Shown: positions 3,676 to 38,085 of the stretch, one piece after another
Position numbering within the stretch: position 1 is the stretch's first letter
Layout of the letters: each line of letters starts with the position of its first letter
Source: Escherichia phage vB_EcoM-Ro121c4YLVW
Reading direction: 5' to 3' (one strand)
Length of the DNA stretch: 64,000 nt
Sequence record: NC_052654.1
Program-made: the position numbers and the translations under genes
Notes under the pieces: model-generated
Database searches by the model: none
Seen by the model: only the letters and a program-made list of their open reading frames with translations
What the model was told of the DNA's origin: nothing

Positions 3676-3688
3676 TAAGGAGCTAAAA

Positions 3689-4162: not shown

Positions 4163-4174
4163 GAGGAGATTAGT

Positions 4175-4396
4175 ATGGGTGTTTTTGCAGGTATTGTTGC
4201 AGTGGTAAGCTTTTTTGTTATTGCTTTTATGCTTAGTTTGATTCCAGCTTGGTTACTGTTGCTGGCTTACAACTATGTTGCTGAAGTTATGGGTCATGCA
4301 GATATCACTGTCCCAGTAACCTTCTGGACCGTGGTTTGTGTTTCGTTTATTCTGGCGGTATTACGAGGAATCTTTTCCTCTCATTCAACAAAATAA
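4175..4396 (+). CDS. small hydrophobic membrane protein (2-3 TM segments)
   Basis: RBS AGAGGAG; sequence dominated by hydrophobic helices; sits directly upstream of the TerC gene. Confidence 0.5.
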   Translation: MGVFAGIVAVVSFFVIAFMLSLIPAWLLLLAYNYVAEVMGHADITVPVTFWTVVCVSFILAVLRGIFSSHSTK

Positions 4397-4399
4397 GTG

Positions 4400-4428
4400 T
4401 TGACATAGTTCTTAAAAAGAGTAAGATA
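4400..4428 (+). promoter_or_regulatory. sigma70-like promoter candidate (TTGACA, 16-17 nt spacer, TAAGAT/AAGATA)
   Basis: TTGACA at 4400-4405 with a -10-like hexamer at the right spacing, in the intergenic gap upstream of the TerC gene. Confidence 0.45.
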
Positions 4429-4475
4429 TATCACATGAAGCGGGGAATAGTTCCCCGCAAAGAGAGGAGAAAAGA

Positions 4476-5447: not shown

Positions 5448-5453
5448 TAGATG

Positions 5454-5478
5454 AGCCTCCTTCGGGAGGCTATTTTAT
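5454..5478 (+). terminator. rho-independent terminator after the TerC gene
   Basis: Hairpin AGCCTCC-TTCG-GGAGGCT followed by ATTTTAT. Confidence 0.7.
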
Positions 5479-5489
5479 AGGAGAGACTT

Positions 5490-5840
5490 ATGAGTAATTT
5501 TGATGAAATTCAAAAACTTGTTTGGGATTTACCTGATGATGTTGATTACGTTTCAGATTATCTTTCAAAAGTTTACCCTGGGGTAAGCGTTATGATTGTG
5601 ACCAAAGATCCAATTAATTTGCCTCCTAATGTGGTAGCTTGTTGTGGGAGTGGTTCAGGGGAAGTGGAGCCTGTATCCCGTTGGGAATTAACTAAAGCTG
5701 TTTCAAAACGAAACGGTGAAGTTTTGAATATTGATATCGAGCAAATATGGACTTCTCCAGCAGCTAAATGGAATGATCCGAATGGTTGGGACTTGTTCTT
5801 CTGGGATAATGAAACTGATGATGAGGTATTTTTAAAATGA
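5490..5840 (+). CDS. hypothetical protein
   Basis: ORF with RBS AGGAGAG; no recognisable motif. Confidence 0.5.
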   Translation: MSNFDEIQKLVWDLPDDVDYVSDYLSKVYPGVSVMIVTKDPINLPPNVVACCGSGSGEVEPVSRWELTKAVSKRNGEVLNIDIEQIWTSPAAKWNDPNGWDLFFWDNETDDEVFLK

Positions 5841-6082
5841 AATACTTGTTGGTTGTGTTTGAAAATATTTGTTTTGCAATAGGGTTGTTTGTTGTAATTT
5901 TTGTATTGACAAGCGTAATCAACGGCAGTAAAGTGAGTTTATACCGAGATGGAGAGCAACTTTATTGCTTCTCTGGAGATTTCAAACACAGATGTATTAA
6001 TAGCCAAAACGAGGAAAGCAAATATGAAAAAACTAGCCCTGATTTTAATTGGTTGTATCTTTTTAACAGCTTGCGAGGATGA
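5837..6082 (+). CDS. hypothetical small membrane protein (doubtful)
   Basis: ATG overlaps the previous stop; N-terminal TM helix. It overlaps the better-supported lipoprotein gene by about 59 nt and contains a promoter-like site, so it may be spurious. Confidence 0.3.
   Translation: MKYLLVVFENICFAIGLFVVIFVLTSVINGSKVSLYRDGEQLYCFSGDFKHRCINSQNEESKYEKTSPDFNWLYLFNSLRG
5906..5934 (+). promoter_or_regulatory. possible sigma70-like promoter upstream of the lipoprotein gene
   Basis: TTGACA, 17 nt spacer, TAAAGT; located about 90 nt upstream of the ATG at 6024. Could be a chance match. Confidence 0.3.
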
Positions 6083-6461
6083 AACAAATCCTGCACAATA
6101 CCAACAACCTCCTCAACAATACGCTCAACAAGGATCTGACGGAGATACAACTATTATCAACAATGGTGGCGGTTCTAGTAGTAGCGGTGTTGGTGAGTTT
6201 GCTACAGGTATGTTGTTAGGGCATATGATGAGTGGCGGTAGTAATCGTAGCAGTGGGGATTATAACGATAACAGAACGATTATTAATAAGCATTATAATA
6301 CACCTAAACCGAAAACTAATTTTTATAGTAAGCCTAAACAAGAGATAAAAACTTATGAAAAGCCGAGACAAACTTTTAAAACAAATAGTAGCTATACAAC
6401 TCGTAAATCTTACAATAGCCCTTTAAGTAAAAAGAGTTCATCTCGTAGCAAGCGACGTTAA
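6024..6461 (+). CDS. predicted lipoprotein with low-complexity Gly/Ser-rich and basic C-terminal region
   Basis: MKKLALILIGCIFLTAC: basic N-terminus, hydrophobic core and lipobox L-T-A-C; RBS GAGGAAAG. The track ORF starts further upstream at 5949. Confidence 0.65.
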   Translation: MKKLALILIGCIFLTACEDETNPAQYQQPPQQYAQQGSDGDTTIINNGGGSSSSGVGEFATGMLLGHMMSGGSNRSSGDYNDNRTIINKHYNTPKPKTNFYSKPKQEIKTYEKPRQTFKTNSSYTTRKSYNSPLSKKSSSRSKRR

Positions 6462-6475
6462 TAAGGAGAAAAACA

Positions 6476-7069
6476 ATGACAATTTCTATTCGTACTTCCA
6501 TCGTAGGTGTTAAAAGGTTGCCTAATGCTTTGCAAATCACACGCGCTTTGAGGGATACATTCTCTGCTGTGGACGAGCATAAGATGCTTGATAATCTTTC
6601 AAATTGGCCCTATTTCCATTATTTTAAAAATGAAGATGACGAGTTTATAGACGCTGTTTCTTATGGTTATGATTTCGGTAAGGAGGTTTCTGCTGAAGAA
6701 TTTGTAGCTATGGTGTTCCCAAACGGTTTGCCTACTCGCAGTAAACGTAAAAAAGGACCAAAAAACAAGAAACGTGCTACTAATAAAGCTACCATTTTCT
6801 TTACTGATGGCACACAATATACGATTAAAGATTTTGAAGAGGTATCTTATACAGCAGGTGGGAATCTTTCTTTCTACACCATCAAAAAACAAAACTCTAC
6901 GTTCAGCCATGTTTCTAACATGATTGAAATGTTAGTAGAAGATATTGAAAGCGTAGCTGTGTTAGGTATGCATAAAAGCTTTTTAATTACAAATATTTCA
7001 GATTTCAGTGCACGTTTATCTGGTCCTGATTTTGAAACCACGACCACGCATTTCACTTTTAAGGTGTAA
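6476..7069 (+). CDS. hypothetical protein
   Basis: ORF with strong RBS TAAGGAGA; no recognisable motif. Confidence 0.55.
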   Translation: MTISIRTSIVGVKRLPNALQITRALRDTFSAVDEHKMLDNLSNWPYFHYFKNEDDEFIDAVSYGYDFGKEVSAEEFVAMVFPNGLPTRSKRKKGPKNKKRATNKATIFFTDGTQYTIKDFEEVSYTAGGNLSFYTIKKQNSTFSHVSNMIEMLVEDIESVAVLGMHKSFLITNISDFSARLSGPDFETTTTHFTFKV

Positions 7070-7072
7070 GTT

Positions 7073-7663
7073 ATGTATACCGAGAGAGACTTGCAACTCT
7101 TGTGGTGGGAAGTGATGCAGGAAATAAAAGAAGATTTTCCTGTTTACTACAACATGTTACGTGAAGCAGGATATAAAGCTTGTGTTAGAAACAAAGTGAA
7201 TAACTCTTTCGGTTGGTGCAACTACCGAGATAAAATTGTTGTTGTAAATTGGCACTTGCATAAGAACTCTACAAGAGATATGATCGTGGATACAATGAAG
7301 CACGAAATTGCTCATGCTATTGATGGTTGTATGGGTAAGTTTAGTAGACACGGTGCTCATTGGCAAAAACTGGCAGCAGAGTTAGGGGCTAATCCTAAAG
7401 CCACTTCCAAAGAGCCGTTGAACCACGAATATAAATATGTTCTTGTTCTGGTAGATAGGTTTGCGACAAGATGTGTTAGAGGTTATAATCGTAAACCTAA
7501 TCGCATGTACCCAGGTAAGCAACCTAATATGTGGTTGAAATCAGATAAAGAAGGGACCGAAGGAAAATTATGGTTGTATAAATGGGACGATTGGGTTAAA
7601 GTAGCTAAAGAGTACGGTGTTTCACCATATATAAGAGATGCAGAAGAGGAGAATGAAGAATGA
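7073..7663 (+). CDS. SprT-like zinc metallopeptidase domain protein
   Basis: HExxH motif in MIVDTMKHEIAHAIDGCMGKFSRHGAHW, as in SprT/Spartan-type proteins. Confidence 0.55.
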   Translation: MYTERDLQLLWWEVMQEIKEDFPVYYNMLREAGYKACVRNKVNNSFGWCNYRDKIVVVNWHLHKNSTRDMIVDTMKHEIAHAIDGCMGKFSRHGAHWQKLAAELGANPKATSKEPLNHEYKYVLVLVDRFATRCVRGYNRKPNRMYPGKQPNMWLKSDKEGTEGKLWLYKWDDWVKVAKEYGVSPYIRDAEEENEE

Positions 7664-8772
7664 CAAGTCCATTTTTAAAAGCAGCTACTGGCGGTCAGAA
7701 GAAGCCTGAAATGAGCGTATTTGCTGCAACAACAGATGCAAGTAAATCTGTATTCGCTCCAAGCGTGTTAGATGCCAGTCCTGTTTATGCACCAGCGGCA
7801 CCGCAAGAAGTTCCAGTTTTGCCTTCTATGACCCGACAAGAGATCGAAGAGATTGGGGCAGAGGCAGGAACAACCTTGCGTTCCTTGAATGCCGAGGTAT
7901 TAAAACATCAACGTAGTAATCAAGGCGATCAGATGAGTGAACGACTCACAGCTTTGATTAAACAGGCAAAACAACTTGATCCAAACTCTATTAAACAAAG
8001 CAAGGGTATTACTAAACTCATTAAAAAAGTTATGGGTATGAAAGAAGATCTGTTTGGGGAGTTTGATAATGTTAATAACCGTATTGAAGAGTTGGTAAAA
8101 AACCTTCAAATGGATATTCGCAAAGAAGAAGATTCCTTGGTATATCTTGAAAAGCTACATCAAGCTATTGGACAATATGCTGCAAGTTTGAACCGAGATA
8201 TGCAGCTTCTAACAGCAACCTATGAAAAAGAAGAACAAGCTTTGGCTGCTCTTCCAGAAGATGCAGTAGAACAGCGACAAGTGATCCGAGATACTTTGGA
8301 TCTTCTGGAGATTCGTATTGCAGATTTAAAAGCATTGCGCCTACTGTGTGTCCAAATGGGACCGCGTGTACAAGGTATGCAAAAAGTTTCTGCAAGCTTA
8401 ATGCGATCTGCGCGTAACATAGTAAATAATGTTATTCCTGCTTACTCTGCTAACTTCTCAATGTATATCGAGAGCTTACGTCAAATGAAAGCAGCAGAGA
8501 CGCAGAATAACGTTCTTGATGAATTTAACCTGGCAATTAAACTGGGTAGCGATCTTGCCACACAGAATCAGATAGAAGCAGCAGCACTGGCTAACCGTCA
8601 AGTGTTGGATATTGAAACTCTGCGTCACGATCAGGAAAACTTGGTTAAGATGTTGGAAGAAACTAACCGCATCAATACGGAAGCCCGTGCTGCTCGTGTT
8701 GATTATATTAATGAAGTTCAATCTTTGGAAGACGGGATGGTAGCTGCTGTGAAACGAGGGCTTGGTAAATGA
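7660..8772 (+). CDS. alpha-helical coiled-coil protein; possibly TelA-like (unverified)
   Basis: ATG overlaps the SprT stop (ATGA). 370 aa, Ala/Gln/Leu/Glu-rich helical sequence with a disordered N-terminus. TelA-like call rests only on size, composition and Ter-gene context. Confidence 0.6.
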   Translation: MTSPFLKAATGGQKKPEMSVFAATTDASKSVFAPSVLDASPVYAPAAPQEVPVLPSMTRQEIEEIGAEAGTTLRSLNAEVLKHQRSNQGDQMSERLTALIKQAKQLDPNSIKQSKGITKLIKKVMGMKEDLFGEFDNVNNRIEELVKNLQMDIRKEEDSLVYLEKLHQAIGQYAASLNRDMQLLTATYEKEEQALAALPEDAVEQRQVIRDTLDLLEIRIADLKALRLLCVQMGPRVQGMQKVSASLMRSARNIVNNVIPAYSANFSMYIESLRQMKAAETQNNVLDEFNLAIKLGSDLATQNQIEAAALANRQVLDIETLRHDQENLVKMLEETNRINTEARAARVDYINEVQSLEDGMVAAVKRGLGK

Positions 8773-8966
8773 GAATCCGTATCTATATAATTGATGAGGA
8801 CATTGGTGTCCGTTATGATGACGAAAAACGATTCGCACCAATGGGAGGCATATATCCCCCAAGTGTTCTAGCAGTTTGTCGTGATTGTTATATTTATGAA
8901 GGTTGTCGTAACTTCCGTAAATTCCAACTCCTTGCAGATATTGACTTCAATGAGGAGGAGGAGTAA
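8769..8966 (+). CDS. hypothetical small protein
   Basis: ATG overlaps the previous stop; acidic C-terminus (NEEEE). Confidence 0.35.
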   Translation: MRIRIYIIDEDIGVRYDDEKRFAPMGGIYPPSVLAVCRDCYIYEGCRNFRKFQLLADIDFNEEEE

Positions 8967-9139
8967 TGAAAATATTACGAGTGAATATTGAAACTGCTTG
9001 GTGTGGATGCAATGAGGTTGTGGATATCGAAATTGAAGATGATATGTCTCAAGAGGATATAGAAGATCTTGCCCACGAAACCTTTCAGGACTATTGTAAT
9101 TACGGGTTTCATATTTTAGAGGAGGAAGAAGATGTTTAA
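8966..9139 (+). CDS. hypothetical small acidic protein (57 aa, not in ORF track)
   Basis: ATG preceded by GAGGAGGAGGAG; hand translation MKILRVNIETAWCGCNEVVDIEIEDD...ILEEEEDV. Confidence 0.4.
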   Translation: MKILRVNIETAWCGCNEVVDIEIEDDMSQEDIEDLAHETFQDYCNYGFHILEEEEDV

Positions 9140-9335
9140 CTACGATAACGATCCTAATATTATCCAGTTAACCCGACAAGAACTGATCACAATCATTGAA
9201 GATGCTTTTATTGATGGTTGGAATACACAAGATAATGACTGGGGTGGACCCGAAGCTTTTCTGGAACATCATAAAGCTTATGGAGAATTTTGTGAAACCA
9301 CTGTAGCTCTTGATAATCTGAAGGAGGGTTTGTAA
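9132..9335 (+). CDS. hypothetical small protein
   Basis: ATG with GAGGAGG RBS. Confidence 0.45.
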   Translation: MFNYDNDPNIIQLTRQELITIIEDAFIDGWNTQDNDWGGPEAFLEHHKAYGEFCETTVALDNLKEGL

Positions 9336-9898
9336 TGGGTTGTTTTAGTTTTTTGTGCAAAGAATCGGGCAAAGCTGCCCTTTCTACTTCTTTCGACGGA
9401 TCACCTTGCTACCTCTTTCTTTTGAAAGACGGTGTTGTTATTGAAGAGATGTATGGCAACTATGATAGTTATGGTTGTGTTTTCTCTGGAAAAGAGGATG
9501 AAAATGGCGTTCGTGAACGGTTCGAATGGGCTATGGATTGGGGTAAGGTTTGTGATTTAATGCATTCCTCAAATCCAAGGGACGGTATTGCTATGGTGCT
9601 GGAAGAGTACTTTACAGGTGAAATCCCTACAGAACAATCTGACGGAGATCCTAATCAAGGTTGGGGTGATGGTGAAGAAGATCCAGATTGTTTTTTCAGC
9701 ACAGAAAAGAATAAGTTTAAACGTGTTGACAACCCTTATCACAAAGTGCATAATACTCTCATTGAAACAGAAGATGACAAGATGGAAATTGAAGAAGATG
9801 ATCCTCTTGTAACACTTCCTATAAGTGAGTTACAAAAGATCACTAAGGAAGCTTACGATTTGGGCTTCAAAATTGGTAGAGGAGGTATGCGTGTTTAG
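9335..9898 (+). CDS. hypothetical protein
   Basis: ATG with AAGGAGGG RBS; acidic, no recognisable motif. Confidence 0.55.
   Translation: MGCFSFLCKESGKAALSTSFDGSPCYLFLLKDGVVIEEMYGNYDSYGCVFSGKEDENGVRERFEWAMDWGKVCDLMHSSNPRDGIAMVLEEYFTGEIPTEQSDGDPNQGWGDGEEDPDCFFSTEKNKFKRVDNPYHKVHNTLIETEDDKMEIEEDDPLVTLPISELQKITKEAYDLGFKIGRGGMRV
9726..9754 (+). promoter_or_regulatory. sigma70-like promoter candidate (TTGACA, 17 nt, CATAAT)
   Basis: Located inside the 3' end of the preceding ORF, about 140 nt upstream of the small-protein/vWA gene pair. Confidence 0.4.
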
Positions 9899-10169
9899 AT
9901 TCAATATTCAAGAAGAAAAAAGTCAGGATTTACCTATTGCTTTCGAAGATCTTGACGTAGGGGCCACATTCATGTATTATGATGCCTATGAAGACGCAGG
10001 GTTGGATACCTACCGTAACTTGGTGTTCATTAAAAATTCCACAAACAGTGCGATTTGTATTAATGGATCACTAGCACAACGAGGCTATACTCATTGCATC
10101 CCACCAGATACAAATATGGTGGAAGTAGATTTAGAAGTTACCAATATTACACTTAAGAAGGAGAAATAA
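9891..10169 (+). CDS. small conserved protein, paralog A (pairs with 11191..11460)
   Basis: GTG start after GGAGG. Shares the pattern ...DLDVG(A/D)TF.Y...(F/Y)(E/D)(D/E)(A/N)GLD...LEV.LTVT.ITLKK with the ORF at 11191. Confidence 0.55.
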   Translation: MFRFNIQEEKSQDLPIAFEDLDVGATFMYYDAYEDAGLDTYRNLVFIKNSTNSAICINGSLAQRGYTHCIPPDTNMVEVDLEVTNITLKKEK

Positions 10170-10170
10170 T

Positions 10171-10965
10171 ATGTCCGAGAAAATCAGCCTGAAAAAACGT
10201 CAAGAAAACCTTGCTTTCTCTCTGAAAAAGAATAAGAACCTGAATGAAGGTAAGATTGTTCTTCGTGTAGCATGTGCTCTAGATATTTCTGGTAGTATGC
10301 ATGGTCTATATTCTAGTGGGGTAGTGAGTGATTTTGTAGGTAAACTGCTTCCTTTTGGTATGCTGTTCGACGATAATCAACAAATTGATATGTGGGCCTT
10401 CAATACGAGTTCCCAAGAGCTTACTCCAGCAACAGCAGACGTTTACGATGACTATGTTGGTAAATGTATGCGTAATGTTCGTATCGGAGGTGGAACAAAT
10501 TACGCCCCTGTAATGGCAGATATCTACGATGAGTATTTTGGCACTGTTACCAAATATATTACCACTAAACAAGTGGTACAAGAGGAGGCTCCAAAGAAAG
10601 GCTTCTTTAATCGTCTGCTTGGTAAAACTGAAACAGTGTCTGTAGAGCGTGAAAAAGTTGTAGCTGTATCTGAACCAGGTGCTGACGTTACCCCTGGTGT
10701 TGTATTCTTCCAGACGGATGGTGAGAATGGTGATCCTAGTGCTGTTCGTCGTCTTATTGAAGAGAATAAGAATAAACCTATTTATTGGTTCATGGTTGGC
10801 GTTGGTAATGAGAAGTTTGGCTTCCTGAAAGAACTGGCAAATGCTTATGATAATGTTGGTTTTATTGGCATTAAAGATTTAGACTTGACAGATTCAGAGC
10901 TTTATGACAAACTCTTATCTGAAGAGTTCGGAGAGTGGGTTGTTAAAGTAGGTGCTAAAAAATGA
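10171..10965 (+). CDS. vWA domain protein, TerF/TerY-like
   Basis: MIDAS motif DISGSM, then GGTNY and TDGENGD; N-terminus MSEKISLKK resembles the TerD-family N-terminal motif. Confidence 0.8.
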   Translation: MSEKISLKKRQENLAFSLKKNKNLNEGKIVLRVACALDISGSMHGLYSSGVVSDFVGKLLPFGMLFDDNQQIDMWAFNTSSQELTPATADVYDDYVGKCMRNVRIGGGTNYAPVMADIYDEYFGTVTKYITTKQVVQEEAPKKGFFNRLLGKTETVSVEREKVVAVSEPGADVTPGVVFFQTDGENGDPSAVRRLIEENKNKPIYWFMVGVGNEKFGFLKELANAYDNVGFIGIKDLDLTDSELYDKLLSEEFGEWVVKVGAKK

Positions 10966-11210
10966 TCGACGAGCTTGCCTCTCAAGTCGTAGAAAATTAT
11001 TGGCGCGAGAGAGAAGCTTTCATTATGCGCAGTCTCAAAGAGTATTTCATTGGGACTGTGCGAATGGAAGATATTGTAAGTAGAGTAGAGATTCATGTAT
11101 GGCCCGATTATGAAGAATGGGTTGACAAAGAAAATGAAAATGCTATAATTCTTCGTATATACAAACCGGAGATAACATTAGGAGGAAGAAGTGTTAAACT
11201 TCGAAATTGA
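10962..11210 (+). CDS. hypothetical small protein
   Basis: ATG overlaps the vWA stop; contains an internal promoter-like site. Confidence 0.4.
   Translation: MIDELASQVVENYWREREAFIMRSLKEYFIGTVRMEDIVSRVEIHVWPDYEEWVDKENENAIILRIYKPEITLGGRSVKLRN
11122..11149 (+). promoter_or_regulatory. sigma70-like promoter candidate (TTGACA, 16 nt, TATAAT)
   Basis: Consensus -35 and perfect -10 hexamer, upstream of the paralog B and TerD genes. Confidence 0.5.
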
Positions 11211-11460
11211 TGAGCAAAAAGTAAATAAACGATGCCTTACCATTAAAGATTTGGATGTAGGAGATACTTTCGTCTATGAAAATGCATTTGACGAAAATGG
11301 TTTAGACCTTAGTGAAATCATTGTTTATTTAAAAGTAGATGATGGGGAAAATGATTATTCTGCTGTAGAACTAAACCATCATGCACAATTAGTATCAATC
11401 CAAAACACATCTAAGCTTTTGGAAGTAGAATTGACTGTAACTGGTATTACACTTAAATAA
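11191..11460 (+). CDS. small conserved protein, paralog B (pairs with 9891..10169)
   Basis: GTG start after GGAGGAAG; sequence parallels paralog A. Confidence 0.55.
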   Translation: MLNFEIDEQKVNKRCLTIKDLDVGDTFVYENAFDENGLDLSEIIVYLKVDDGENDYSAVELNHHAQLVSIQNTSKLLEVELTVTGITLK

Positions 11461-11475
11461 TAGAGGAGACAAAAG

Positions 11476-12078
11476 ATGACTGATAAAATTTCCCTGAAAA
11501 AAGGCTCTAGCGAAAAAATTTCCCTGAAGAAAGTTGCTCCGGCTCTGAAAGAACTGCGCCTGGAATTCTCTTGGAAATCTGATTCTAAACTGGATCTGGA
11601 TGTAAGTGCACTGGTTTGTCGTCATAATGCCGCTGGCAATCCTGAAATGCTGTCCGCACGTCATCTGGTTTGCTATGCTAACAAGTTTGATCCTGAACGT
11701 TCTACCTTCGCTGGTGACGATGTTCGTGATGGGACTGGCAGCATGGAGCAGATTGATATTACTCTGGCTAAAATCTCTCCTGATGCACAAGAGATTGCCT
11801 TTGTTCTGACCATTGATGATGATACAGGTCTGAAACGTTTTGGTCATGCTTCTGAAGGTATGCTTAAAATCTTCGACTCCGAGCGTAATGTGGAAATTCT
11901 GGATTTTGACTTCCTGGCTCCTGAAGTAGCTGGCAACACAATCTGCCACGTGGCTTCCCTGGTTCGTGAAGATGGAGAATGGAAGCTGAAAGCATATGGT
12001 GTAGGTAAAGCTGGTCTGGATATTTGCGATGTGGTGATGGCCTTCGGTGGTAAAAAAGAATGGTATGAATGTCCATAA
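11476..12078 (+). CDS. terD: TerD-domain protein
   Basis: Matches recalled TerD signatures: N-terminal ISLKK repeats, DLDVSALVC, GDDVRDGTGSMEQIDITL, IAFVLTIDDD, DGEWKLKAYGVGKAGL. Codon usage is strongly E. coli-optimal (CTG, CGT, GGT). Confidence 0.9.
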   Translation: MTDKISLKKGSSEKISLKKVAPALKELRLEFSWKSDSKLDLDVSALVCRHNAAGNPEMLSARHLVCYANKFDPERSTFAGDDVRDGTGSMEQIDITLAKISPDAQEIAFVLTIDDDTGLKRFGHASEGMLKIFDSERNVEILDFDFLAPEVAGNTICHVASLVREDGEWKLKAYGVGKAGLDICDVVMAFGGKKEWYECP

Positions 12079-12096
12079 TAATTAACAAATGATTTT

Positions 12097-12116
12097 GAGG
12101 GGGAGAAATCCCCCTC
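12097..12116 (+). other. GC-rich stem-loop (GAGGGGGAGAAATCCCCCTC) without a clear U-tract
   Basis: Perfect inverted repeat between the TerD and endolysin genes. Confidence 0.5.
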
Positions 12117-12145
12117 TTGCAATAAAGCCTCTATCGTGTTATACT
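12117..12145 (+). promoter_or_regulatory. sigma70-like promoter candidate (TTGCAA, 17 nt, TATACT)
   Basis: Immediately downstream of the stem-loop and about 30 nt upstream of the endolysin RBS. Confidence 0.5.
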
Positions 12146-12177
12146 AGAAGTTCGTTAACTTAAAAAGGAGGCAAAAT

Positions 12178-12699
12178 TTGCTGATAAAAAACTTTGTAAC
12201 AGTTGCGTTACTATCCTTAACTGCTTTTACATTTACACCTGTTGTGGCGAAAGCCGAAGCTGCAAACGTAAAAACCGCTAAAGTAGTTCACAAATGTACA
12301 AAGCAATATAATGATAAAATTCTATTAGCTTGTGCAATTTACGCAGAAGGTCGCGGTCTGGGTAAAAAAGGAATGAATGCCGTTGGGAATGTGGTAATCA
12401 ACAGAAGAAATGATGCCTACTTCCCTAACACAGTCAAGGGAGTCTTGTTCCAGAAAGGGCAATTCTCATATGCGAAAACTTTTAACGTGACAGAGAAAGA
12501 TAAGTGGCAGGAAGCAAAAGCAATAGCGGAGCGTTTACTTTATTTAGAGAAACATTTTCCTGAATTGCGGTCTGTTTTAGATGTTACTAAAGGTGCTCTA
12601 TACTTCAAGAAACGGAATATAAGGACACACTGGGAGCGTGATATGCGTCTTGTTTATCGAGATAAAGTGCATGGTTTCTATCTACCAAAGGGGAGTTAA
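12178..12699 (+). CDS. cell-wall hydrolase (SleB/Hydrolase_2-like) with N-terminal signal peptide; candidate secreted endolysin
   Basis: TTG start after AAAGGAGG; signal peptide with AKA-EA cleavage-like site; CAIYAEGRGLG...GNVVINRR...FQKGQFSYAKTF resembles SleB-type hydrolases. Confidence 0.7.
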   Translation: MLIKNFVTVALLSLTAFTFTPVVAKAEAANVKTAKVVHKCTKQYNDKILLACAIYAEGRGLGKKGMNAVGNVVINRRNDAYFPNTVKGVLFQKGQFSYAKTFNVTEKDKWQEAKAIAERLLYLEKHFPELRSVLDVTKGALYFKKRNIRTHWERDMRLVYRDKVHGFYLPKGS

Positions 12700-13400: not shown

Positions 13401-13964
13401 ATGATTTATTATATTACTCCCTATCTGACAGGAAATATCGGCAAGGCTATCAATGAAGCTATTGCCGTTCTTCCAGATGATAGTTGGGTGTGCTTAAGAG
13501 ATACCGATACAATGTTCCTCCTGCCTGATCAACCATCTATGCTTGAAGAGCTTGTTATGTCAAACCCGCCTTTTGATGTAATAGGTGCAACTTGTAACAG
13601 GTTAGGTAGTGGTTATCAGCTTTTCTCTAACCAAATTAACGATGATCCAGATATTCTAAACCATATAGAATATGCTAAGATTGCAAGAGAATATCATAAA
13701 GTGAGTGTTGAAGAAGTTCCTTTCGGAACACCTCTGGCAGGTTTCTTTTTGCTTTTTAGAAAATCATTGTGGAATGAAATTCCTTTCGAAGAAAAATCTA
13801 TCCAATTCGACCTAATTTTCTCTCGCACTTTACATGAAAAAGGAAAGAGGTTAGGATTGATGCGGGGAATGTATCTGTTTCACATTTACAGATTAGGTCA
13901 AACAAATCCTCAACGGTCTATACATCATTTATTACACTGTCACGATCACAGTAAAACTATCTAG
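13401..13964 (+). CDS. putative GT-A fold glycosyltransferase
   Basis: N-terminal beta-strand YYITPY followed by D-x-D-like LRDTDTMF; weak. Confidence 0.45.
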   Translation: MIYYITPYLTGNIGKAINEAIAVLPDDSWVCLRDTDTMFLLPDQPSMLEELVMSNPPFDVIGATCNRLGSGYQLFSNQINDDPDILNHIEYAKIAREYHKVSVEEVPFGTPLAGFFLLFRKSLWNEIPFEEKSIQFDLIFSRTLHEKGKRLGLMRGMYLFHIYRLGQTNPQRSIHHLLHCHDHSKTI

Positions 13965-13972
13965 GAGAGAAA

Positions 13973-14656
13973 ATGGAAAATATTAAAATCGGAGTGGGTG
14001 TTATCACTGTAGGTGTCCGTCCACTTAAAGACTATCTTGTAACAGATCCACATGCAGATTTTCGAGTATTCAACGATCCAGATCGTAAAGGTGTAGCTTA
14101 CGCCAGGAATGAACTTATGCACCAGTTTTATGAAGAAGGTTATGATTATTGGTTTATTTTTGACGACGATTGCTACCCAATCATGGAGGGATGGGAAACA
14201 TATTTTGTAGATCAAGCTGTCTCTGGAAGATGGGATTTCTTTGGTATGCCGGAGTATTTCAAAGATAAAGTTGTTGGGAGTAAAGGAGAAGTTATTCTCT
14301 GGGAACTTGCAATGTGTCAATTTGCAATGTATTCTCGTGCCGTTGTTGAGAAGATGGGTTATTTCCGCCCTTACACTCACGGCTATGGTTTTGAAGATGC
14401 TGAATGGGTACACCGTTTGAAAGCTGCTGGTTTGAATCAGGGTATTCAGGCAATACCTTGTCCACTTCGTATCATGGCTTATATCCACCCAGACGATGTT
14501 TTTGGAAACAATCCTATGCCTTTTGCTAATCTGACAAAAGAAGAGAAAGAAGCTGCTATTGGCATTAACTGGGAAGAATATAAAGCGTCTTTAGAAGATA
14601 TTAAAAATGGGAAAATCCGAATTTCTTATGAGGAGGCACTGGCACATGTCAAATAA
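13973..14656 (+). CDS. glycosyltransferase, GT-A fold (family 2-like)
   Basis: DxD motif FIFDDDCYP and downstream GFEDAEW; RBS AGGAGAG. Confidence 0.65.
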   Translation: MENIKIGVGVITVGVRPLKDYLVTDPHADFRVFNDPDRKGVAYARNELMHQFYEEGYDYWFIFDDDCYPIMEGWETYFVDQAVSGRWDFFGMPEYFKDKVVGSKGEVILWELAMCQFAMYSRAVVEKMGYFRPYTHGYGFEDAEWVHRLKAAGLNQGIQAIPCPLRIMAYIHPDDVFGNNPMPFANLTKEEKEAAIGINWEEYKASLEDIKNGKIRISYEEALAHVK

Positions 14657-15593
14657 AAAATGGACTAAACTGAAAATTGATGCAAAACCTCACAGTGGTT
14701 GTGATTATCATCGTATTGTTATACCATTTAACAACAATAATTTTCAGCCTAAGAAAGATGTTGTCGTGTTTAACCGTATTCATTCTAAAGGTGCAGAATA
14801 CGTTTTATCTTTGAAACGTCAAGGTGTTAAGATTGTTGTAGATTTAGATGATTTCTACCAACTTAATCCAGAACATTATTTAGCAAGTCTATACGAGTCA
14901 AACACTCATGCTATTGTAGCTATGGTTAAGCTTGCTGATGTGGTTATTGTGACTACGGAATATTTAGCATATAAGATCCGTCACTTAAATAGGAATGTTG
15001 TTGTGATCCGAAATGCACTTCCTTTTGATAGCGGACAATTCACTTTGTCAAATGATCGTTCATCCGGTACCCCTGTTGTATGGGCTGGCGGTGCTAGTCA
15101 CGAACCAGACTTACGACTAGTCTCTAATACTTTCGATGATGAACTTCTTACTATTGCGGGATATGAAGCATCACAAAGCATCACGGGACAAGAGTGGATT
15201 AAGATTCGCAGAAATTTACCAAATGCCAAATATAAAGCCGCCGTAAAAGATTTAGATAATTACATGAGTGTTTACGAAAGTCATGCTATTGCTATAGCTC
15301 CTTTGGTAGATAATGATTTTAATAATTGTAAAAGTAATCTCAAAATCCTGGAAGCTGGAGCAAAAGGTATTCCGATTGTTTGTTCTAAGGTATTACCTTA
15401 TTTTAACCCTGTAGATGCTCGCGCTGTTGCTTACGCAGAGAATAAAGCAGAATGGCATTACGAAATTGTTAAGCTTCTTCGCAATCCAAACTATCGGGAA
15501 GATCGTGGCTTGTTCTTGGCTGAACATGTTCGAACACATTATAATCTGGCAGATGCAAACGAGTTGCGACGCCAGGTTATTGAAAGTTTGTAG
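14646..15593 (+). CDS. glycosyltransferase, GT-B fold (GT4-like), paralog 1
   Basis: C-terminal KSNLKILEAGAKGIPIVCS resembles the GT-B E-x7-E region; ATG 14646 follows AGGAGG; paralogous to the next gene. Confidence 0.65.
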   Translation: MSNKKWTKLKIDAKPHSGCDYHRIVIPFNNNNFQPKKDVVVFNRIHSKGAEYVLSLKRQGVKIVVDLDDFYQLNPEHYLASLYESNTHAIVAMVKLADVVIVTTEYLAYKIRHLNRNVVVIRNALPFDSGQFTLSNDRSSGTPVVWAGGASHEPDLRLVSNTFDDELLTIAGYEASQSITGQEWIKIRRNLPNAKYKAAVKDLDNYMSVYESHAIAIAPLVDNDFNNCKSNLKILEAGAKGIPIVCSKVLPYFNPVDARAVAYAENKAEWHYEIVKLLRNPNYREDRGLFLAEHVRTHYNLADANELRRQVIESL

Positions 15594-15600
15594 GTGAAGT

Positions 15601-16545
15601 ATGGGACAAATAATTCTTGACAATCGTAACGGAATCAATTATAGTGTCTGCGATTTCCATAGGGTAGTGCTGCCTTACTCAAGGCAGTTCTCTTCACAAC
15701 CTAAACACAACGTTTTCGTTTTTAACGGAGTGCCAACAAAAGGTAAAGAGGGCTTTTTAGCCCTTAAAAACCTGGGCTTTAAAATGGTTATGGATTTGGA
15801 TGACTCTTTAGTTATTCCAAAAGGACACATGTTAGAAGGTATTTTTGAATCAGGTATTCGTGAACATTTAAAATGGTTTTTAGAGCACAGTGATCTTGTT
15901 ACAACTACGACACCTGCCTTGCAAGTTGAACTTTCACAATACAATGATAATGTGCACATAATCCCTAATGGACTTCCTTATGATGAAGGTCAATTTGTGT
16001 TGACCCGTGATCGCTACTCCAAAACTCCATTAGTCTGGGCTGGAAGTGAAACACATAAACAAGATTTGGCTATCTTGCCCGATTTTGGTAAAGATCTTAC
16101 AATATGTGGTTTTCGTAGGGATTCTGAAGTTTTAAGTAGTCGTGAATGGTCTGTAATTAGAGAAAATGTAGCACCAACTAGTGTTTATGAAGGTGTAAGA
16201 CCATATGCCAACTACATGGAATCTTACGATGGTCATCAAATCAGTCTTGCACCATTGGTCGATAACGTGTTTAATAATGCAAAAAGCAATCTTAAAATTC
16301 TTGAGGCAGGTGCTAAGGGTTTACCTTTAATCTGCTCTCCTCGTGAGAATTATCATACGCAAGAGTTTAAAGATTTGTTATTCTTTGCTGAAACACTTTC
16401 CGAGTGGAAAGATATTACGGAATACTTATTAAGTGCTCCCGATGTTTGCATGGAGAAAGGATTAGCATTAGCTAAGTATGTCAGGACTCATTATCACATT
16501 GATGTGTTGAATGAGCGTCGTAGACTTTTATTTGAGGAGCTATAA
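15601..16545 (+). CDS. glycosyltransferase, GT-B fold (GT4-like), paralog 2
   Basis: KSNLKILEAGAKGLPLICS and overall co-linear similarity to 14646..15593. Confidence 0.65.
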   Translation: MGQIILDNRNGINYSVCDFHRVVLPYSRQFSSQPKHNVFVFNGVPTKGKEGFLALKNLGFKMVMDLDDSLVIPKGHMLEGIFESGIREHLKWFLEHSDLVTTTTPALQVELSQYNDNVHIIPNGLPYDEGQFVLTRDRYSKTPLVWAGSETHKQDLAILPDFGKDLTICGFRRDSEVLSSREWSVIRENVAPTSVYEGVRPYANYMESYDGHQISLAPLVDNVFNNAKSNLKILEAGAKGLPLICSPRENYHTQEFKDLLFFAETLSEWKDITEYLLSAPDVCMEKGLALAKYVRTHYHIDVLNERRRLLFEEL

Positions 16546-16823
16546 TGATTAACACTTTTGATTTTGAATACACCACTCGTAACGGGAAAGCCTTGGTTGT
16601 GGAGGTGGATTACTATTATGAAGAACCTAATCCACTTTCTCGTGAAAGCGATTGGGATTACCACGGAGGGCTTTTAATTGACGGTATTCGTTTTTATGAA
16701 GGATCTACAGAAGTTTTTGAAAAAGATTTAAATGTAACTGTAGCAGAAATTGCTTTCCAATTTAGAAAGCACATGGAAGAACTAGAAGCAGAATATATGA
16801 TGGAGACTAACGAACCATTTTAA
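16545..16823 (+). CDS. hypothetical protein
   Basis: ATG overlaps the previous stop; RBS GAGGAG. Confidence 0.45.
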   Translation: MINTFDFEYTTRNGKALVVEVDYYYEEPNPLSRESDWDYHGGLLIDGIRFYEGSTEVFEKDLNVTVAEIAFQFRKHMEELEAEYMMETNEPF

Positions 16824-36355: not shown

Positions 36356-37843
36356 TTACACTCCATACTCGTAAGAAATGTTATCAAGGTCAAAAGAAGG
36401 GACAACATTATAAGCAGGAACTATATTATTCTCTGTATATTTACTGTCATCCTCAGTATTAAGTTTAACATAAACACGAAGAGAAGTCAAGCGTCCAAAA
36501 GCAAGTGCTGCATAAATAACACCTTTGATTTGATCGTTCGTTACTGAAGAACCTAATTCAAAGTAAGCTTGCAGGTTTTGTAAAGCTTCTACAATGTTTT
36601 GTTTTTCTGTTCCACTTAAAGTTGTTCCGTTGACAGTTTGATAAACAAGTTTTACGGAATACATAGCAGAAGCACCAGGAGAGAAGCGAATAATTTCTTG
36701 TCCTCCATCTTCTGTTGTAACTGTTATGTTAGTTGTTCCGTGTGTCAAAGTGTTGATTGGTTTGGTTTTATAGATAACATTTGCAATTTCTTCTGCACTG
36801 CCACCATAAACTATAGTCTGGAAAGTCATAGCTGGAGCGTGTTCTTGATCATGTAACGTAGGGTTATCATAAATCTTCACCTTAGTGACACCATCTGTAA
36901 GTAACAGAGCTTTCACAATAGCTGCTCGTGTCCCTGCGTTAGCTTCGTCAACGTTGTCATTGAAACGAGAGCGGAATTCTGCATCTGTCTCAACATCTCG
37001 ACCAGGAGAAAATGAATAGAAGTTACCACTGTCAAGATAACCTGTAAAGGTAGAAGATATCCCTGTAATAGACTCCACACCAACAGGATTGTATCCTTTC
37101 TCTGCTGCAACTACCGGAATCTCACTCCATTTGGTTCCAACCGGAACACTAGCATAAAATTTAATAGGAGTTACCAGCCCCACTGGAGTATCACTGGTTA
37201 AAGAAGTAAAACCAATTGATAAGTTACCTGAATCAGAAAATACAAGACTACGATCAGCTTCTGTTAAATTTGCCTTGATAAAAGTTTCAAGATCGGTTAT
37301 AAATGTAGAAGAACCAGGTGCAAGTGTTTTACTGTTTAGTCCTCCATCGACCGCACTTTGTGCATAAAAAGTAATATTCGGAACACCTGTAGCAGTTGCA
37401 TTAGCACGAGAGATTTGATAAGCTGCAATCTTAGCATTCAACATAGTTGGTGTGCTAACATAGTAGTTCATATCACTATCAGAGTTGAAGTAAATATCCG
37501 TGCCTAGCTCATAAGTCCAAGCTGCTTTGTTATTACTCTTAACATATGCATAACCTGTACTTGCTGCTGCACCTGCTCGATAGAAACCGCGTTTAGAAAA
37601 GATTTCATCAAGATAAATACCTTCTGCACCATCCAGTGTTTGAGTATTATAAACACCTTGCATACCTTCCCACAATGTGTAATCTGTGTATGCAATTATT
37701 CTAAACAGTTGTCCGATCACAGTATCTTCCGAAGTGGCTGCATCTGCACCAAATGTGTTTTTTACTGCTGTCATGTAGTTGTTTAAAACATCGTCAAAAG
37801 TCGGGATTACAAATCCCGCATCTGTCAAACCATATTCGTCCAT
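36356..37843 (-). CDS. baseplate wedge protein (gpJ/gp6-like), putative
   Basis: 495 aa; size and gene order (J-like, I-like, fibre, chaperone) resemble the P2-type baseplate-fibre module. Confidence 0.55.
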   Translation of the reverse strand: MDEYGLTDAGFVIPTFDDVLNNYMTAVKNTFGADAATSEDTVIGQLFRIIAYTDYTLWEGMQGVYNTQTLDGAEGIYLDEIFSKRGFYRAGAAASTGYAYVKSNNKAAWTYELGTDIYFNSDSDMNYYVSTPTMLNAKIAAYQISRANATATGVPNITFYAQSAVDGGLNSKTLAPGSSTFITDLETFIKANLTEADRSLVFSDSGNLSIGFTSLTSDTPVGLVTPIKFYASVPVGTKWSEIPVVAAEKGYNPVGVESITGISSTFTGYLDSGNFYSFSPGRDVETDAEFRSRFNDNVDEANAGTRAAIVKALLLTDGVTKVKIYDNPTLHDQEHAPAMTFQTIVYGGSAEEIANVIYKTKPINTLTHGTTNITVTTEDGGQEIIRFSPGASAMYSVKLVYQTVNGTTLSGTEKQNIVEALQNLQAYFELGSSVTNDQIKGVIYAALAFGRLTSLRVYVKLNTEDDSKYTENNIVPAYNVVPSFDLDNISYEYGV

Positions 37844-38085
37844 TAGTCATCCTCTTTGGTAGATTGTGATCTGCCCCAGCGTAAATCAATAAGATTTTTC
37901 ATGAGGCGAGAAGGAGTTATCATGAAAACAAAAGCCCAACCCATCCATTCAGGAATTTCTTTTTCTATTCCTAAAAAGATAAACATGCCTGTCATAACCG
38001 ACATGCCTACAGCGTTCCAGACTTTCGTAGAACTGACTTTATTATCAGGATATGTACAGAACATACCTATTAAAAATTTTCTCAT
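37843..38085 (-). CDS. small membrane protein (2 TM; holin-like)
   Basis: Two hydrophobic segments with a charged C-terminus (KEDD). Confidence 0.4.
   Translation of the reverse strand: MRKFLIGMFCTYPDNKVSSTKVWNAVGMSVMTGMFIFLGIEKEIPEWMGWAFVFMITPSRLMKNLIDLRWGRSQSTKEDD

What the first reader, a model, noticed from the sequence alone, without database searches (positions are those of the whole stretch)
12097..12699. Signal-peptide SleB-type endolysin with TTG start and no adjacent holin
The cell-wall hydrolase has a cleavable-looking signal sequence and its own stem-loop plus promoter. The downstream genes are not membrane proteins. Holin-like small membrane proteins are instead found elsewhere (4175..4396 and 37843..38085), implying a dispersed lysis system with Sec-dependent endolysin export.
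Basis: partly seen in the sequence, partly recalled or inferred. Interest (0 to 1): 0.4.

Follow-up and report, generated by a model that had tools for sequence, protein, structure and literature searches.

The report
Secreted SleB-type wall hydrolase, accessory lysin
This E. coli phage gene encodes a small cell-wall-cutting enzyme that is exported to the periplasm, but it is already annotated in about 130 related phage genomes and is probably an accessory enzyme, because those genomes also carry a classic T4-type lysozyme.

Summary
ORF 12178..12699 (+) starts at TTG behind a strong Shine-Dalgarno. It encodes a 173-aa protein with a Sec-type signal peptide (predicted cleavage AKA|EA, 26/27) and one Hydrolase_2 (SleB/CwlJ catalytic) domain with the catalytic Glu (E57). 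A hairpin and a sigma70-like promoter precede it. No membrane protein follows it.

The window is a Phapecoctavirus (phAPEC8-like), 99.7% identical to phage nieznany over the 2-kb locus. There the same ORF is already called 'endolysin / cell wall hydrolase SleB'.

All 124 related genomes found also encode a soluble T4 e-type lysozyme, and nieznany carries Rz/Rz1 spanins beside the terminase. Both lie outside this window.

Homologous signal-peptide SleB-like genes sit in replication modules of T5-like and rV5-like phages, Pakpunavirus and Cr30. In T5-like phages and Pakpunavirus they lie far from the holin-linked endolysin.

The most likely role is an accessory, holin-independent periplasmic peptidoglycan hydrolase, not the principal endolysin. 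Its exact role is untested.

The two 'holin-like' ORFs are small membrane proteins with no holin family match.

One thing is unexplained: codons 1-45 show nearly frozen synonymous sites across 13 relatives.

The parts
12097..12116 (+). Hairpin GAGGGGGA-GAAA-TCCCCCTC directly after the TerD-like gene (stop at 12078). Probably a leaky terminator or an RNA-end element.
   Evidence: Sequence. It is present in the MFE fold. All 17 relatives folded keep a hairpin with different stem sequences, e.g. GGGGC-GAAA-GCCCC followed by TTTCTCTT. The terminator scan did not call it because the T-run here is short.
12117..12145 (+). Sigma70-like promoter: -35 TTGCAA (12117-22), 17-nt spacer, extended -10 TGtTATACT (12137-45).
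   Evidence: Scan hit, 9/12 with TG. The -35 and the TGnTAnAnT -10 are kept in 15 of 18 unique relatives while spacer flanks vary. This is one of only five intergenic gaps of at least 35 nt in the 27-kb + strand block.
12127..12132 (+). Pyrimidine-rich GCCTCT inside the promoter spacer (CCCTCCT in most relatives), complementary to the Shine-Dalgarno. Possible anti-SD; weak evidence.
   Evidence: It pairs with the SD in the MFE of all 14 Stephanstirmvirinae-type read-through RNAs. However, the RBS opening energy ranks only 24th of 81 genes.
12165..12171 (+). Shine-Dalgarno AAGGAGG, 6 nt before the start codon.
   Evidence: Sequence. GGAGGC is invariant in 18 unique relatives.
12178..12699 (+). 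CDS, TTG start, 173 aa: exported Hydrolase_2 (SleB/CwlJ-type) peptidoglycan hydrolase.
12178..12255 (+). Predicted Sec signal peptide, residues 1-26, with cleavage AKA|EA.
   Evidence: n-h-c layout and the -3/-1 rule. pLDDT is below 56 for residues 1-30, so this part is not in the fold. The signal peptide is a family-wide feature, 107/111.
12256..12696 (+). Predicted mature enzyme: 147 aa, 16.97 kDa, pI 9.9.
   Evidence: The AF2 model has pLDDT 86-99 from about residue 31 onward (mean of 10-residue blocks).
12361..12681 (+). Pfam Hydrolase_2 match, residues 62-168. The fold starts earlier, at about residue 38.
12346..12348 (+). Codon GAA for Glu57, aligned with the Glu of YGESRGE in SleB.
   Evidence: phmmer alignment to 4F55/4FET. 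E57 is invariant in 83 aligned homologues. The SleB catalytic glutamate is essential for lytic transglycosylase activity (PMC12331253).
12295..12333 (+). Cys40 (12295-97) and Cys52 (12331-33): a candidate periplasmic disulfide.
   Evidence: Both are invariant in 14 clade members and kept in rV5-like and Henunavirus homologues. Distance in the model was not measured; the disulfide is an inference.
12178..12312 (+). 5' 45 codons with nearly frozen synonymous sites (unexplained).
   Evidence: Identical-codon fraction is 0.81-0.93 in windows within codons 1-45, against 0.39-0.58 from codon 51 onward, in 13 genomes. Neighbouring genes score 0.40-0.78. Folding z-scores are +0.2 and -0.6. There is no Rfam hit and no second copy.
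4175..4396 (+). 73-aa membrane protein upstream of the TerC-like gene.
   Evidence: Two hydrophobic segments. PHROG 16065 is of unknown function, and there is no holin family match. An early-type promoter plus hairpin follows it, at 4391-4469.
37843..38085 (-). 80-aa membrane protein with a charged C-terminus inside the baseplate operon. The more plausible holin candidate, but unproven.
   Evidence: Sequence. PHROG 1322 'membrane protein'. No Pfam or NCBIfam hit. A paper on phage BME3, which also carries a lysozyme plus a SleB-like hydrolase, mentions distant 61- and 81-residue class II holin-like proteins (PMC12210895).

Best explanation
The gene encodes a small single-domain peptidoglycan hydrolase of the Hydrolase_2 family, the catalytic domain of the spore enzymes SleB and CwlJ. 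By homology it is most likely a lytic transglycosylase using Glu57.

It is translated from a TTG codon and carries a classical Sec signal peptide. The proposed path is as follows (all steps inferred). It is exported across the inner membrane and cut by signal peptidase I after Ala26. It is then released as a basic 17-kDa periplasmic enzyme, probably stabilised by a Cys40-Cys52 disulfide. It therefore reaches the wall without a holin.

It is an accessory muralytic enzyme. The canonical holin-dependent endolysin of this phage type is the soluble T4 e-like lysozyme encoded elsewhere, with Rz/Rz1 spanins beside the terminase.

My best guess for its job is that it nicks or loosens the sacculus from the periplasmic side, before or in parallel with holin triggering. 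This would make lysis faster or more robust. Low output (TTG start) or dependence on membrane de-energisation would keep it from killing the cell early.

Shown here: domain, fold, catalytic residue, export signal and its family-wide conservation, gene context, co-occurrence with a second lysin. Inferred: cleavage site, disulfide, bond specificity, timing, contribution to lysis.
For: Domain and fold:
- Pfam Hydrolase_2, 64.1 bits.
- The AF2 model has mean pLDDT 86.7.
- The only significant PDB fold matches are SleB catalytic domains 4F55/4FET, probability 1.00, target TM 0.69-0.76.
- E57 is invariant in 83 sequences and aligns to the SleB Glu.

Export:
- The n-h-c signal with AxA is present.
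- The same layout with different sequences occurs in T5-like (MKAALLLVAALTFSFSSQA|S), rV5-like (..LSLPVVA|AP) and Henunavirus homologues.
- 107 of 111 homologues carry it.
- Paired cysteines are conserved.

Accessory status:
- A T4 e-type lysozyme is found in 124 related records.
- Spanins lie by the terminase in nieznany.
- Pakpunavirus B31 has an endolysin-holin-lipoprotein cassette 34 kb from its SleB-like gene.
- In T5-like phages the SleB-like gene (T5.083) lies far from the holin-linked M15 endolysin.
- In JG004, Cr30 and rV5-like phages the gene sits among replication or rII genes.

Link to lysis and toxicity:
- CB7_83, a homologue with a signal peptide, was toxic when expressed in E. 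coli (authors' data not shown), and a 2-TMD protein overlaps it (PMC7344957).
- The Henunavirus order is SleB-like, then a 76-aa 2-TMD protein, then a 660-aa ORF in the position that rIIA holds in nimi.

Literature:
- Papers already describe 'two endolysins' in this kind of phage (PMC10793346, PMC12210895).
Against: - No experiment on any phage Hydrolase_2 protein was found.
[quoted passage not shown] This conflicts with my rule-based call and with the CB7 paper.
- SleB acts on spore cortex, so activity on ordinary E. coli peptidoglycan is assumed, not shown.
- Timing is unknown. Sigma70-like promoters precede both replication and structural genes in this phage.
- If the enzyme were active and exported early, the cell should lyse early. 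How this is avoided is pure inference.
- The T4-like lysozyme's role as the endolysin rests on homology to T4 e, not on data for this phage.
Confidence: 0.6

Rival explanations
1. It is the principal endolysin, exported by Sec ahead of time and unleashed when a distant holin collapses the membrane potential. On this reading the T4-like lysozyme has another or a redundant role.
For: It has a muralytic domain plus an export signal. RefSeq and PHROG label it 'endolysin'. In Certrevirus and Henunavirus a 2-TMD holin-like gene is adjacent. The homologue is toxic in E. coli. No holin lies next to the T4-like lysozyme either; the upstream 49-aa protein is hydrophilic.
Against: A full-length T4 e homologue is conserved in every related genome found. 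In T5-like phages and Pakpunavirus the homologous gene coexists with a separate endolysin-holin cassette. In PVP-SE1 the characterised endolysin is, to my recollection, the other enzyme. The RefSeq label comes from automatic family naming.
Confidence: 0.15
2. It is exported and active, but its purpose is not host lysis. Instead it remodels periplasmic peptidoglycan during the replication phase, for example to allow cell enlargement, to alter envelope properties against superinfecting phages, or to feed wall turnover products into sugar-nucleotide pools.
For: It is consistently placed among replication, nucleotide-metabolism or rII genes in five lineages. Here it heads a unit with four glycosyltransferases and the primase/helicase. 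It is retained alongside complete lysis cassettes.
Against: No evidence supports any specific non-lytic role. Genome position is a weak guide to timing in this phage. The adjacent holin-like genes in some Vequintavirinae point towards lysis.
Confidence: 0.2
3. The N-terminal segment is not cleaved but acts as a signal-anchor-release (SAR) or plain membrane anchor. The enzyme would then be held inactive at the membrane until depolarisation, as in P1 Lyz or phage 21 R.
For: The hydrophobic stretch is long for a signal peptide (18-19 residues) and rich in Thr/Ser/Ala: 42% G/A/S/T, with a summed Hessa-scale insertion energy of about +1.6 kcal/mol, which is marginal. Its amino-acid sequence is unusually conserved. 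The Pakpunavirus homologue has an N-terminal hydrophobic helix without an obvious AxA site.
Against: There is no glycine in the segment. P at -6 and A at -3/-1 are conserved across diverged homologues whose hydrophobic cores differ. T5-like and rV5-like versions are textbook cleavable signals.
Confidence: 0.1

Closest known systems
SleB-like 'cell wall hydrolase' genes of other large virulent phages: Pectobacterium phage CB7 gp83, Cronobacter phage CR3_087, coliphage T5 T5.083, Pakpunavirus JG004 PJG4_029
   Same: They share the same single Hydrolase_2 domain (29-36% identity) and an N-terminal export signal. They are located away from the canonical endolysin. CB7_83 is reported to have a signal peptide and to be toxic in E. 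coli.
   Different: The neighbours differ. In Certrevirus and Henunavirus the neighbour is a 2-TMD protein, and in rV5-like phages it is rIIA/rIIB. Here the neighbours are TerD-like and glycosyltransferase genes, and nieznany has no rIIA homologue. None has been characterised biochemically.
Bacillus CwlJ and the C-terminal catalytic domain of SleB (PDB 4F55, 4FET)
   Same: Same fold and catalytic glutamate. The single-domain layout matches CwlJ (PMC12331253).
   Different: It is not a SleB orthologue: TIGR02869 scores 52.5 against a cut-off of 236.5. It has no N-terminal peptidoglycan-binding domain and no YpeB-type partner nearby. The host has no muramic-lactam cortex, so the substrate must differ.
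Sec-exported endolysins of Gram-positive phages (Oenococcus phage fOg44 Lys44; from my own knowledge)
   Same: A muralytic enzyme with a cleavable signal peptide that reaches the wall without a holin.
   Different: There the exported enzyme is the only endolysin and sits in the lysis cassette. Here a second, cytoplasmic lysozyme exists and there is no cassette.
SAR endolysins (P1 Lyz, phage 21 R; from my own knowledge)
   Same: Holin-independent export through Sec in a Gram-negative host.
   Different: Those have Gly/Ala-rich uncleaved anchors. This protein has no Gly in the segment and has a conserved AxA site.
T4 lysozyme (gene e), as the likely true endolysin of this phage type
   Same: Phage nieznany gp046 aligns to T4L residues 3-161, E about 1e-48. 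As in T4, it is unlinked to the spanins (and in T4 also to the holin; my own knowledge).
   Different: It lies outside the window and is unrelated in fold to the SleB-like protein.

Membership tests
Hydrolase_2 (PF07486; SleB/CwlJ catalytic domain) | Profile match above the curated threshold | tested here: met
   64.1 bits against 27, E 2e-17, residues 62-168.
Hydrolase_2 (PF07486; SleB/CwlJ catalytic domain) | SleB catalytic-domain fold | tested here: met
   AF2 mean pLDDT 86.7. Foldseek hits 4F55/4FET at probability 1.00; the next hit has E > 3.
Hydrolase_2 (PF07486; SleB/CwlJ catalytic domain) | Catalytic glutamate in the Y-x-E-x-R-G motif | tested here: met
   E57 aligns with the Glu of YGESRGE and is invariant in 83 homologues.
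SleB proper (spore cortex-lytic enzyme, TIGR02869 equivalog) | Equivalog score | tested here: not met
   52.5 bits against a cut-off of 236.5.
SleB proper (spore cortex-lytic enzyme, TIGR02869 equivalog) | N-terminal peptidoglycan-binding domain | tested here: not met
   Pfam finds only Hydrolase_2. Residues 27-37 form a short low-confidence linker.
Phage endolysin (functional class) | Muralytic catalytic domain | tested here: met
   (by homology only).
Phage endolysin (functional class) | Linkage to holin or spanin genes, or being the sole muralytic enzyme | tested here: not met
   The neighbours are not membrane proteins. A T4-type lysozyme is present in all 124 related genomes found. The spanins in nieznany lie about 52 kb away.
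Phage endolysin (functional class) | Required for host lysis | not testable with these tools
   Needs phage knockouts.
Sec-exported (signal-peptide) endolysins, fOg44 Lys44 type | N-terminal n-h-c signal with an AxA signal peptidase I site | tested here: met
   By rules and conservation only. No SignalP-type predictor was available. One paper reports no signal peptides in such phages; another reports one in a homologue.
Sec-exported (signal-peptide) endolysins, fOg44 Lys44 type | SecA-dependent export, processing, and activation on membrane depolarisation | not testable with these tools
   Experimental.
SAR endolysins | Uncleaved, weakly hydrophobic Gly/Ala/Ser-rich N-terminal transmembrane segment | tested here: inconclusive
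   The segment is 42% G/A/S/T, has no Gly, and has marginal insertion energy. However, a conserved AxA site follows it.

The most novel reading that the evidence does not exclude
Signal-peptide SleB/CwlJ-type hydrolases form a conserved class of phage proteins separate from the holin-endolysin-spanin pathway. They occur in T5-like, rV5-like and phAPEC8-like phages, Pakpunavirus and Cr30. On this reading they are exported during the replication phase to remodel the host wall for a purpose other than, or preparatory to, lysis. Their output would be tightly controlled at the RNA level. This is hinted at by the conserved TTG start, the SD-complementary motif inside the promoter, and the frozen synonymous sites of codons 1-45.
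Probability: 0.3. Interest if true: 0.55.

Novelty: already known. Interest (0 to 1): 0.27.

Why it matters
Many large virulent phages of Gram-negative bacteria carry this second, exported wall hydrolase, and databases label it 'endolysin' automatically. If it is not the endolysin, those labels mislead people who mine phage genomes for enzybiotics. A widespread phage function acting on the host envelope before lysis would then remain undescribed. For this particular window the result is modest. The gene is real and correctly delimited, but it is already annotated, and the dispersed-lysis picture needs the T4-type lysozyme and the spanins that lie outside the window.

Tried and rejected
1. T4 gene e-style translational gating.
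- Idea: an anti-SD (GCCUCU/CCUCC) sits in the promoter spacer and would silence read-through transcripts.
- The pairing appears in the MFE of all 14 Stephanstirmvirinae-type relatives, and the motif is conserved.
- However, the RBS opening energy is unexceptional, 24th of 81 genes.
- The SD is invariant, so no covariation is possible. I kept this only as a note.

2. A conserved RNA structure to explain the frozen synonymous sites.
- RNAalifold draws a 36-pair hairpin over codons 6-42. Of its pairs, 32 never vary and none has a change on both sides.
- Single-sequence folding is no better than shuffles, z +0.2 and -0.6. There is no Rfam match.

3. An overlapping ORF or a second genomic copy as the cause of that conservation. 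None was found.

4. Using promoter type to time expression.
- The early promoter-plus-hairpin class (TTGACA-N16-TAAGAT followed by a GGGCGG hairpin) is distinct from this gene's promoter.
- But sigma70-like promoters with an extended -10 also precede structural genes, so timing cannot be called.

5. An rIIA/rIIB link, as seen in rV5-like phages. Nieznany has no rIIA homologue.

6. Holin family membership of 4175..4396 and 37843..38085. No family matched.

7. A hairpin covariation alignment with hand-set coordinates failed because some coordinates were wrong. I used the per-sequence folds instead.

8. Extending the synonymous-site test to rV5-like phages. Too few diverged loci were found.

9. 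Literature searches for an experimental study of a phage Hydrolase_2 enzyme or a Phapecoctavirus transcriptome. None was found.
Full report
WHAT THE WINDOW IS

A 2-kb stretch around the finding is 99.7-99.8% identical to Escherichia phages of the genus Phapecoctavirus (phAPEC8-like, Stephanstirmvirinae). 130 phage records match it. The window is collinear with phage nieznany (NC_052659.1), positions about 75405-139404. It runs from the anaerobic ribonucleotide reductase through a Ter-like cluster, glycosyltransferases, replication genes and the tail and head genes, and it ends inside the large terminase.

THE OBSERVATION

The ORF 12178..12699 (+) is real and 173 aa long. TTG is the first possible start after an in-frame stop. 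AAGGAGG lies 6 nt upstream. RefSeq annotates the same ORF with the same start as 'endolysin; putative cell wall hydrolase SleB'.

All 13 Stephanstirmvirinae-type relatives for which I obtained DNA start at TTG. A Henunavirus homologue also uses TTG, and an rV5-like one uses GTG.

The 99-nt gap upstream contains two elements.
- An 8-bp GC-rich hairpin at 12097-12116.
- A sigma70-like site: TTGCAA, 17 nt, TGtTATACT (12117-12145).

As a consensus match the promoter is weak evidence. It scores 9/12, and such matches are common by chance. Comparison makes it credible. In 15 of 18 unique relatives the -35, the extended -10, the SD and the start codon are kept while flanking bases change. Every relative has a hairpin, built from different stem sequences and often followed by a longer T-run.

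The three ORFs downstream have no hydrophobic segment. I regard the descriptive part of the finding as confirmed.

THE PROTEIN

Pfam finds one domain, Hydrolase_2 (PF07486), at 64 bits. PHROGs places the protein in an 'endolysin' family. The only solved relatives are the catalytic domains of the spore cortex lytic transglycosylase SleB. The alignment covers the YGESRGE motif, which reads YAEGRG here.

An AlphaFold model built on 83 homologues has mean pLDDT 86.7. Confidence is low only for about the first 30 residues. Foldseek against the PDB returns the SleB catalytic domains at probability 1.00 and nothing else of significance.

Glu57 is invariant in the 83-sequence alignment. The corresponding glutamate is essential for SleB's lytic transglycosylase activity (PMC12331253).

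The protein is not a SleB orthologue. It scores 52.5 against a cut-off of 236.5 for the SleB equivalog model and lacks SleB's N-terminal wall-binding domain. In layout it resembles single-domain CwlJ. Several phage papers call such proteins 'amidases'; the solved relatives are lytic transglycosylases.

The family of small single-domain relatives is large, with 3632 cluster representatives at E <= 0.001.

EXPORT

The N-terminus is MLIK / NFVTVALLSLTAFTFTPVV / AKA|EA.
- It has one basic residue and an 18-19-residue hydrophobic core.
- Pro is at -6 and Ala at -3 and -1, followed by an acidic residue.
- It has no lipobox and no twin-arginine motif.

I had no dedicated predictor, so the call is rule-based. 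The stronger argument is comparative. Homologues whose N-termini are unrelated in sequence have the same layout.
- T5-like: MKAALLLVAALTFSFSSQA|S.
- rV5-like: ..AIILSALLSLPVVA|AP.
- Henunavirus..ACAISLTTAPAMA|TE.

In total, 107 of 111 homologues have a hydrophobic segment ahead of the catalytic motif. Two cysteines (40 and 52) are invariant in the clade and kept in rV5-like homologues, which suits an oxidising compartment.

Cleavage at 26/27 would give a 147-aa, 17.0-kDa, pI 9.9 enzyme.

One paper on three such phages says no signal peptides were detected (PMC10698182). A paper on the homologue CB7_83 reports one (PMC7344957). A SAR-type uncleaved anchor cannot be excluded, because the segment is 42% Gly/Ala/Ser/Thr and only marginally hydrophobic. 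The conserved AxA site and the absence of glycine argue for cleavage.

IS IT THE ENDOLYSIN?

Phage nieznany encodes a 166-aa soluble protein that aligns with T4 lysozyme over residues 3-161 at E about 1e-48. It has no hydrophobic N-terminus. That gene is found in 124 phage records of the same group, including the window's closest relative PQ438048.1. It is absent from the window.

Nieznany also has an Rz-like inner-membrane spanin and a lipoprotein Rz1-like partner immediately upstream of the terminase, just past the window's end.

But a conventional cytoplasmic endolysin is among them.

The same pattern holds in other lineages that carry a signal-peptide SleB-like gene.
- Pakpunavirus B31 has an endolysin-holin-lipoprotein cassette after the tail fibre genes. 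Its SleB-like gene lies 34 kb away, between DNA ligase and phosphohydrolase genes.
- In T5-like phages the SleB-like gene (T5.083) lies in the early region, far from the holin-linked peptidase endolysin.
- In Caulobacter phage Cr30 it lies between the primase/helicase and the helicase loader.
- In rV5-like phages it abuts rIIA/rIIB.

Published genome papers already note 'two endolysins' in these phages and leave open which is used (PMC10793346, PMC12210895, PMC11180984).

There are some links to lysis. In Certrevirus a 65-aa two-TMD protein overlaps the SleB-like gene, and the protein was toxic in E. coli (authors' data not shown). In a Henunavirus a 76-aa two-TMD protein follows it.

I conclude that the protein most likely is an accessory, holin-independent periplasmic wall hydrolase. 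I assign a confidence of 0.6 to that reading. The rivals are:
- 0.15 that it is the principal endolysin;
- 0.2 that its role is not lysis at all;
- 0.1 for the separate sub-question of whether the N-terminus is an uncleaved anchor rather than a cleaved signal.

These values are independent confidences, not a partition of one question.

TIMING

The gene heads a transcription unit that continues through three small ORFs, four glycosyltransferases and the primase/helicase (12178 to about 18615). Only five intergenic gaps of at least 35 nt exist in the 27-kb + strand block.

The phage has a distinct class of early promoters (TTGACA-N16-TAAGAT followed by a GGGCGG hairpin). One of these precedes the TerC-like gene at 4391-4469. 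The promoter of the SleB-like gene is not of that class. However, sigma70-like promoters with an extended -10 also precede structural genes. I therefore cannot assign a temporal class.

THE PROPOSED HOLINS

4175..4396 encodes a 73-aa protein with two hydrophobic segments, just upstream of the TerC-like gene. 37843..38085 (-) encodes an 80-aa membrane protein with a charged C-terminus inside the baseplate operon. Neither matches a holin family in PHROGs, Pfam or NCBIfam. The second is the more plausible candidate, given late-operon context and a charged tail. Another group noted distant 61- and 81-residue holin-like proteins in phage BME3, which likewise carries a lysozyme plus a SleB-like hydrolase. 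This remains a guess.

UNEXPLAINED FEATURES

First, synonymous sites are nearly frozen in the first 45 codons (signal peptide plus linker). Across 13 genomes the fraction of identical codons among conserved residues is 0.81-0.93 in windows within codons 1-45. It is 0.39-0.58 from codon 51 onward, at similar amino-acid identity. Neighbouring genes run at 0.40-0.78. The 90 nt at 12209-12298 are the most conserved of a 5.5-kb locus against AMO3598 and among the most conserved against phiWec181. The intergenic bases upstream do vary, so a recent recombination tract is unlikely. I found no supporting RNA structure, no Rfam family, no overlapping ORF and no second copy.

Second, the promoter spacer holds a conserved pyrimidine motif (GCCTCT here, CCCTCCT in most relatives). 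It is complementary to the Shine-Dalgarno and pairs with it in every predicted read-through RNA of the Stephanstirmvirinae-type relatives. This recalls the control of T4 gene e (my own knowledge). But the opening energy of the ribosome-binding site is ordinary for this phage, 24th of 81 genes, so I do not claim it.

VERDICT

The feature is real and correctly delimited. The gene, its family assignment and the 'two lysins, dispersed lysis genes' picture are already in the databases and literature, so novelty is 'already known'. The open question is what this widespread exported hydrolase does. The odd RNA-level conservation of its 5' end gives it some residual interest.

Noticed in passing
window 12178-12312: Synonymous sites of codons 1-45 of the SleB-like gene are almost invariant across 13 diverged genomes. 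The identical-codon fraction is 0.81-0.93 in windows within codons 1-45, against 0.39-0.58 from codon 51 onward; neighbouring genes run at 0.40-0.78. No RNA structure, Rfam family, overlapping ORF or second copy explains it.
   Followed up: yes
window 12127-12132 (with 12167-12172): A conserved GCCTCT/CCCTCCT motif in the promoter spacer is complementary to the Shine-Dalgarno. The -35 hexamer is also predicted to pair with the UUG start region. Together they could silence read-through transcripts as in T4 gene e. The energy is not exceptional (rank 24 of 81) and covariation cannot be tested.
   Followed up: yes
window 4391-4469; phage nieznany about 50.7-57.0 kb (L004, minus strand): A repeated early-promoter module: TTGACA-N16-TAAGAT/TAAACT followed about 10 nt later by a GGGCGG...CCGCC hairpin. 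It occurs before more than 10 small genes in nieznany and once in the window, ahead of the TerC-like gene.
   Followed up: partly
window about 3683-12078: A phage-borne Ter-like cluster lies immediately upstream of the hydrolase. It includes a macro/phosphatase-like gene, a TerC-like membrane protein (4470-5444), a 'tellurite resistance' gene (7657-8769), a vWA-TerF-like gene (10171-10965) and a TerD gene (11476-12078). Its function in a virulent phage is unknown.
   Followed up: no
window 13401-16546: Four consecutive glycosyltransferase genes lie between the hydrolase unit and the primase/helicase. One has a weak hit to TET-associated glycosyltransferase. This may indicate DNA or surface sugar modification.
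   Followed up: no
L010 2498-5245 (Erwinia phage pEa_SNUABM_56): In this Henunavirus the gene order is SleB-like (TTG start), a 76-aa two-TMD protein, then a 660-aa ORF that occupies the position rIIA holds in nimi. This is a possible lysis-control cluster that the Phapecoctavirus lacks; tblastn finds no rIIA homologue in nieznany.
   Followed up: partly
phage records MG065650.1 and four others: Five records named 'Campylobacter phage' appear among the Phapecoctavirus matches, and one of them (MG065650.1) is 99.8% identical to E. coli Phapecoctavirus DNA over the lysozyme region. This probably reflects mislabelled hosts or contaminant phages.
   Followed up: no
L003 23212-23709 (phage nieznany gp046): The phage's T4-type lysozyme matches PDB 7RGR 'Artificial protein L056' better (E 3e-72) than T4 lysozyme itself. 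It is identical to it over about the first 70 residues.
   Followed up: no
window 35054-35389 (approx., minus strand): A small lipoprotein gene lies between the colanic-acid-degrading tail protein and the tail fibre assembly gene. It may be a receptor-blocking or exclusion lipoprotein.
   Followed up: no
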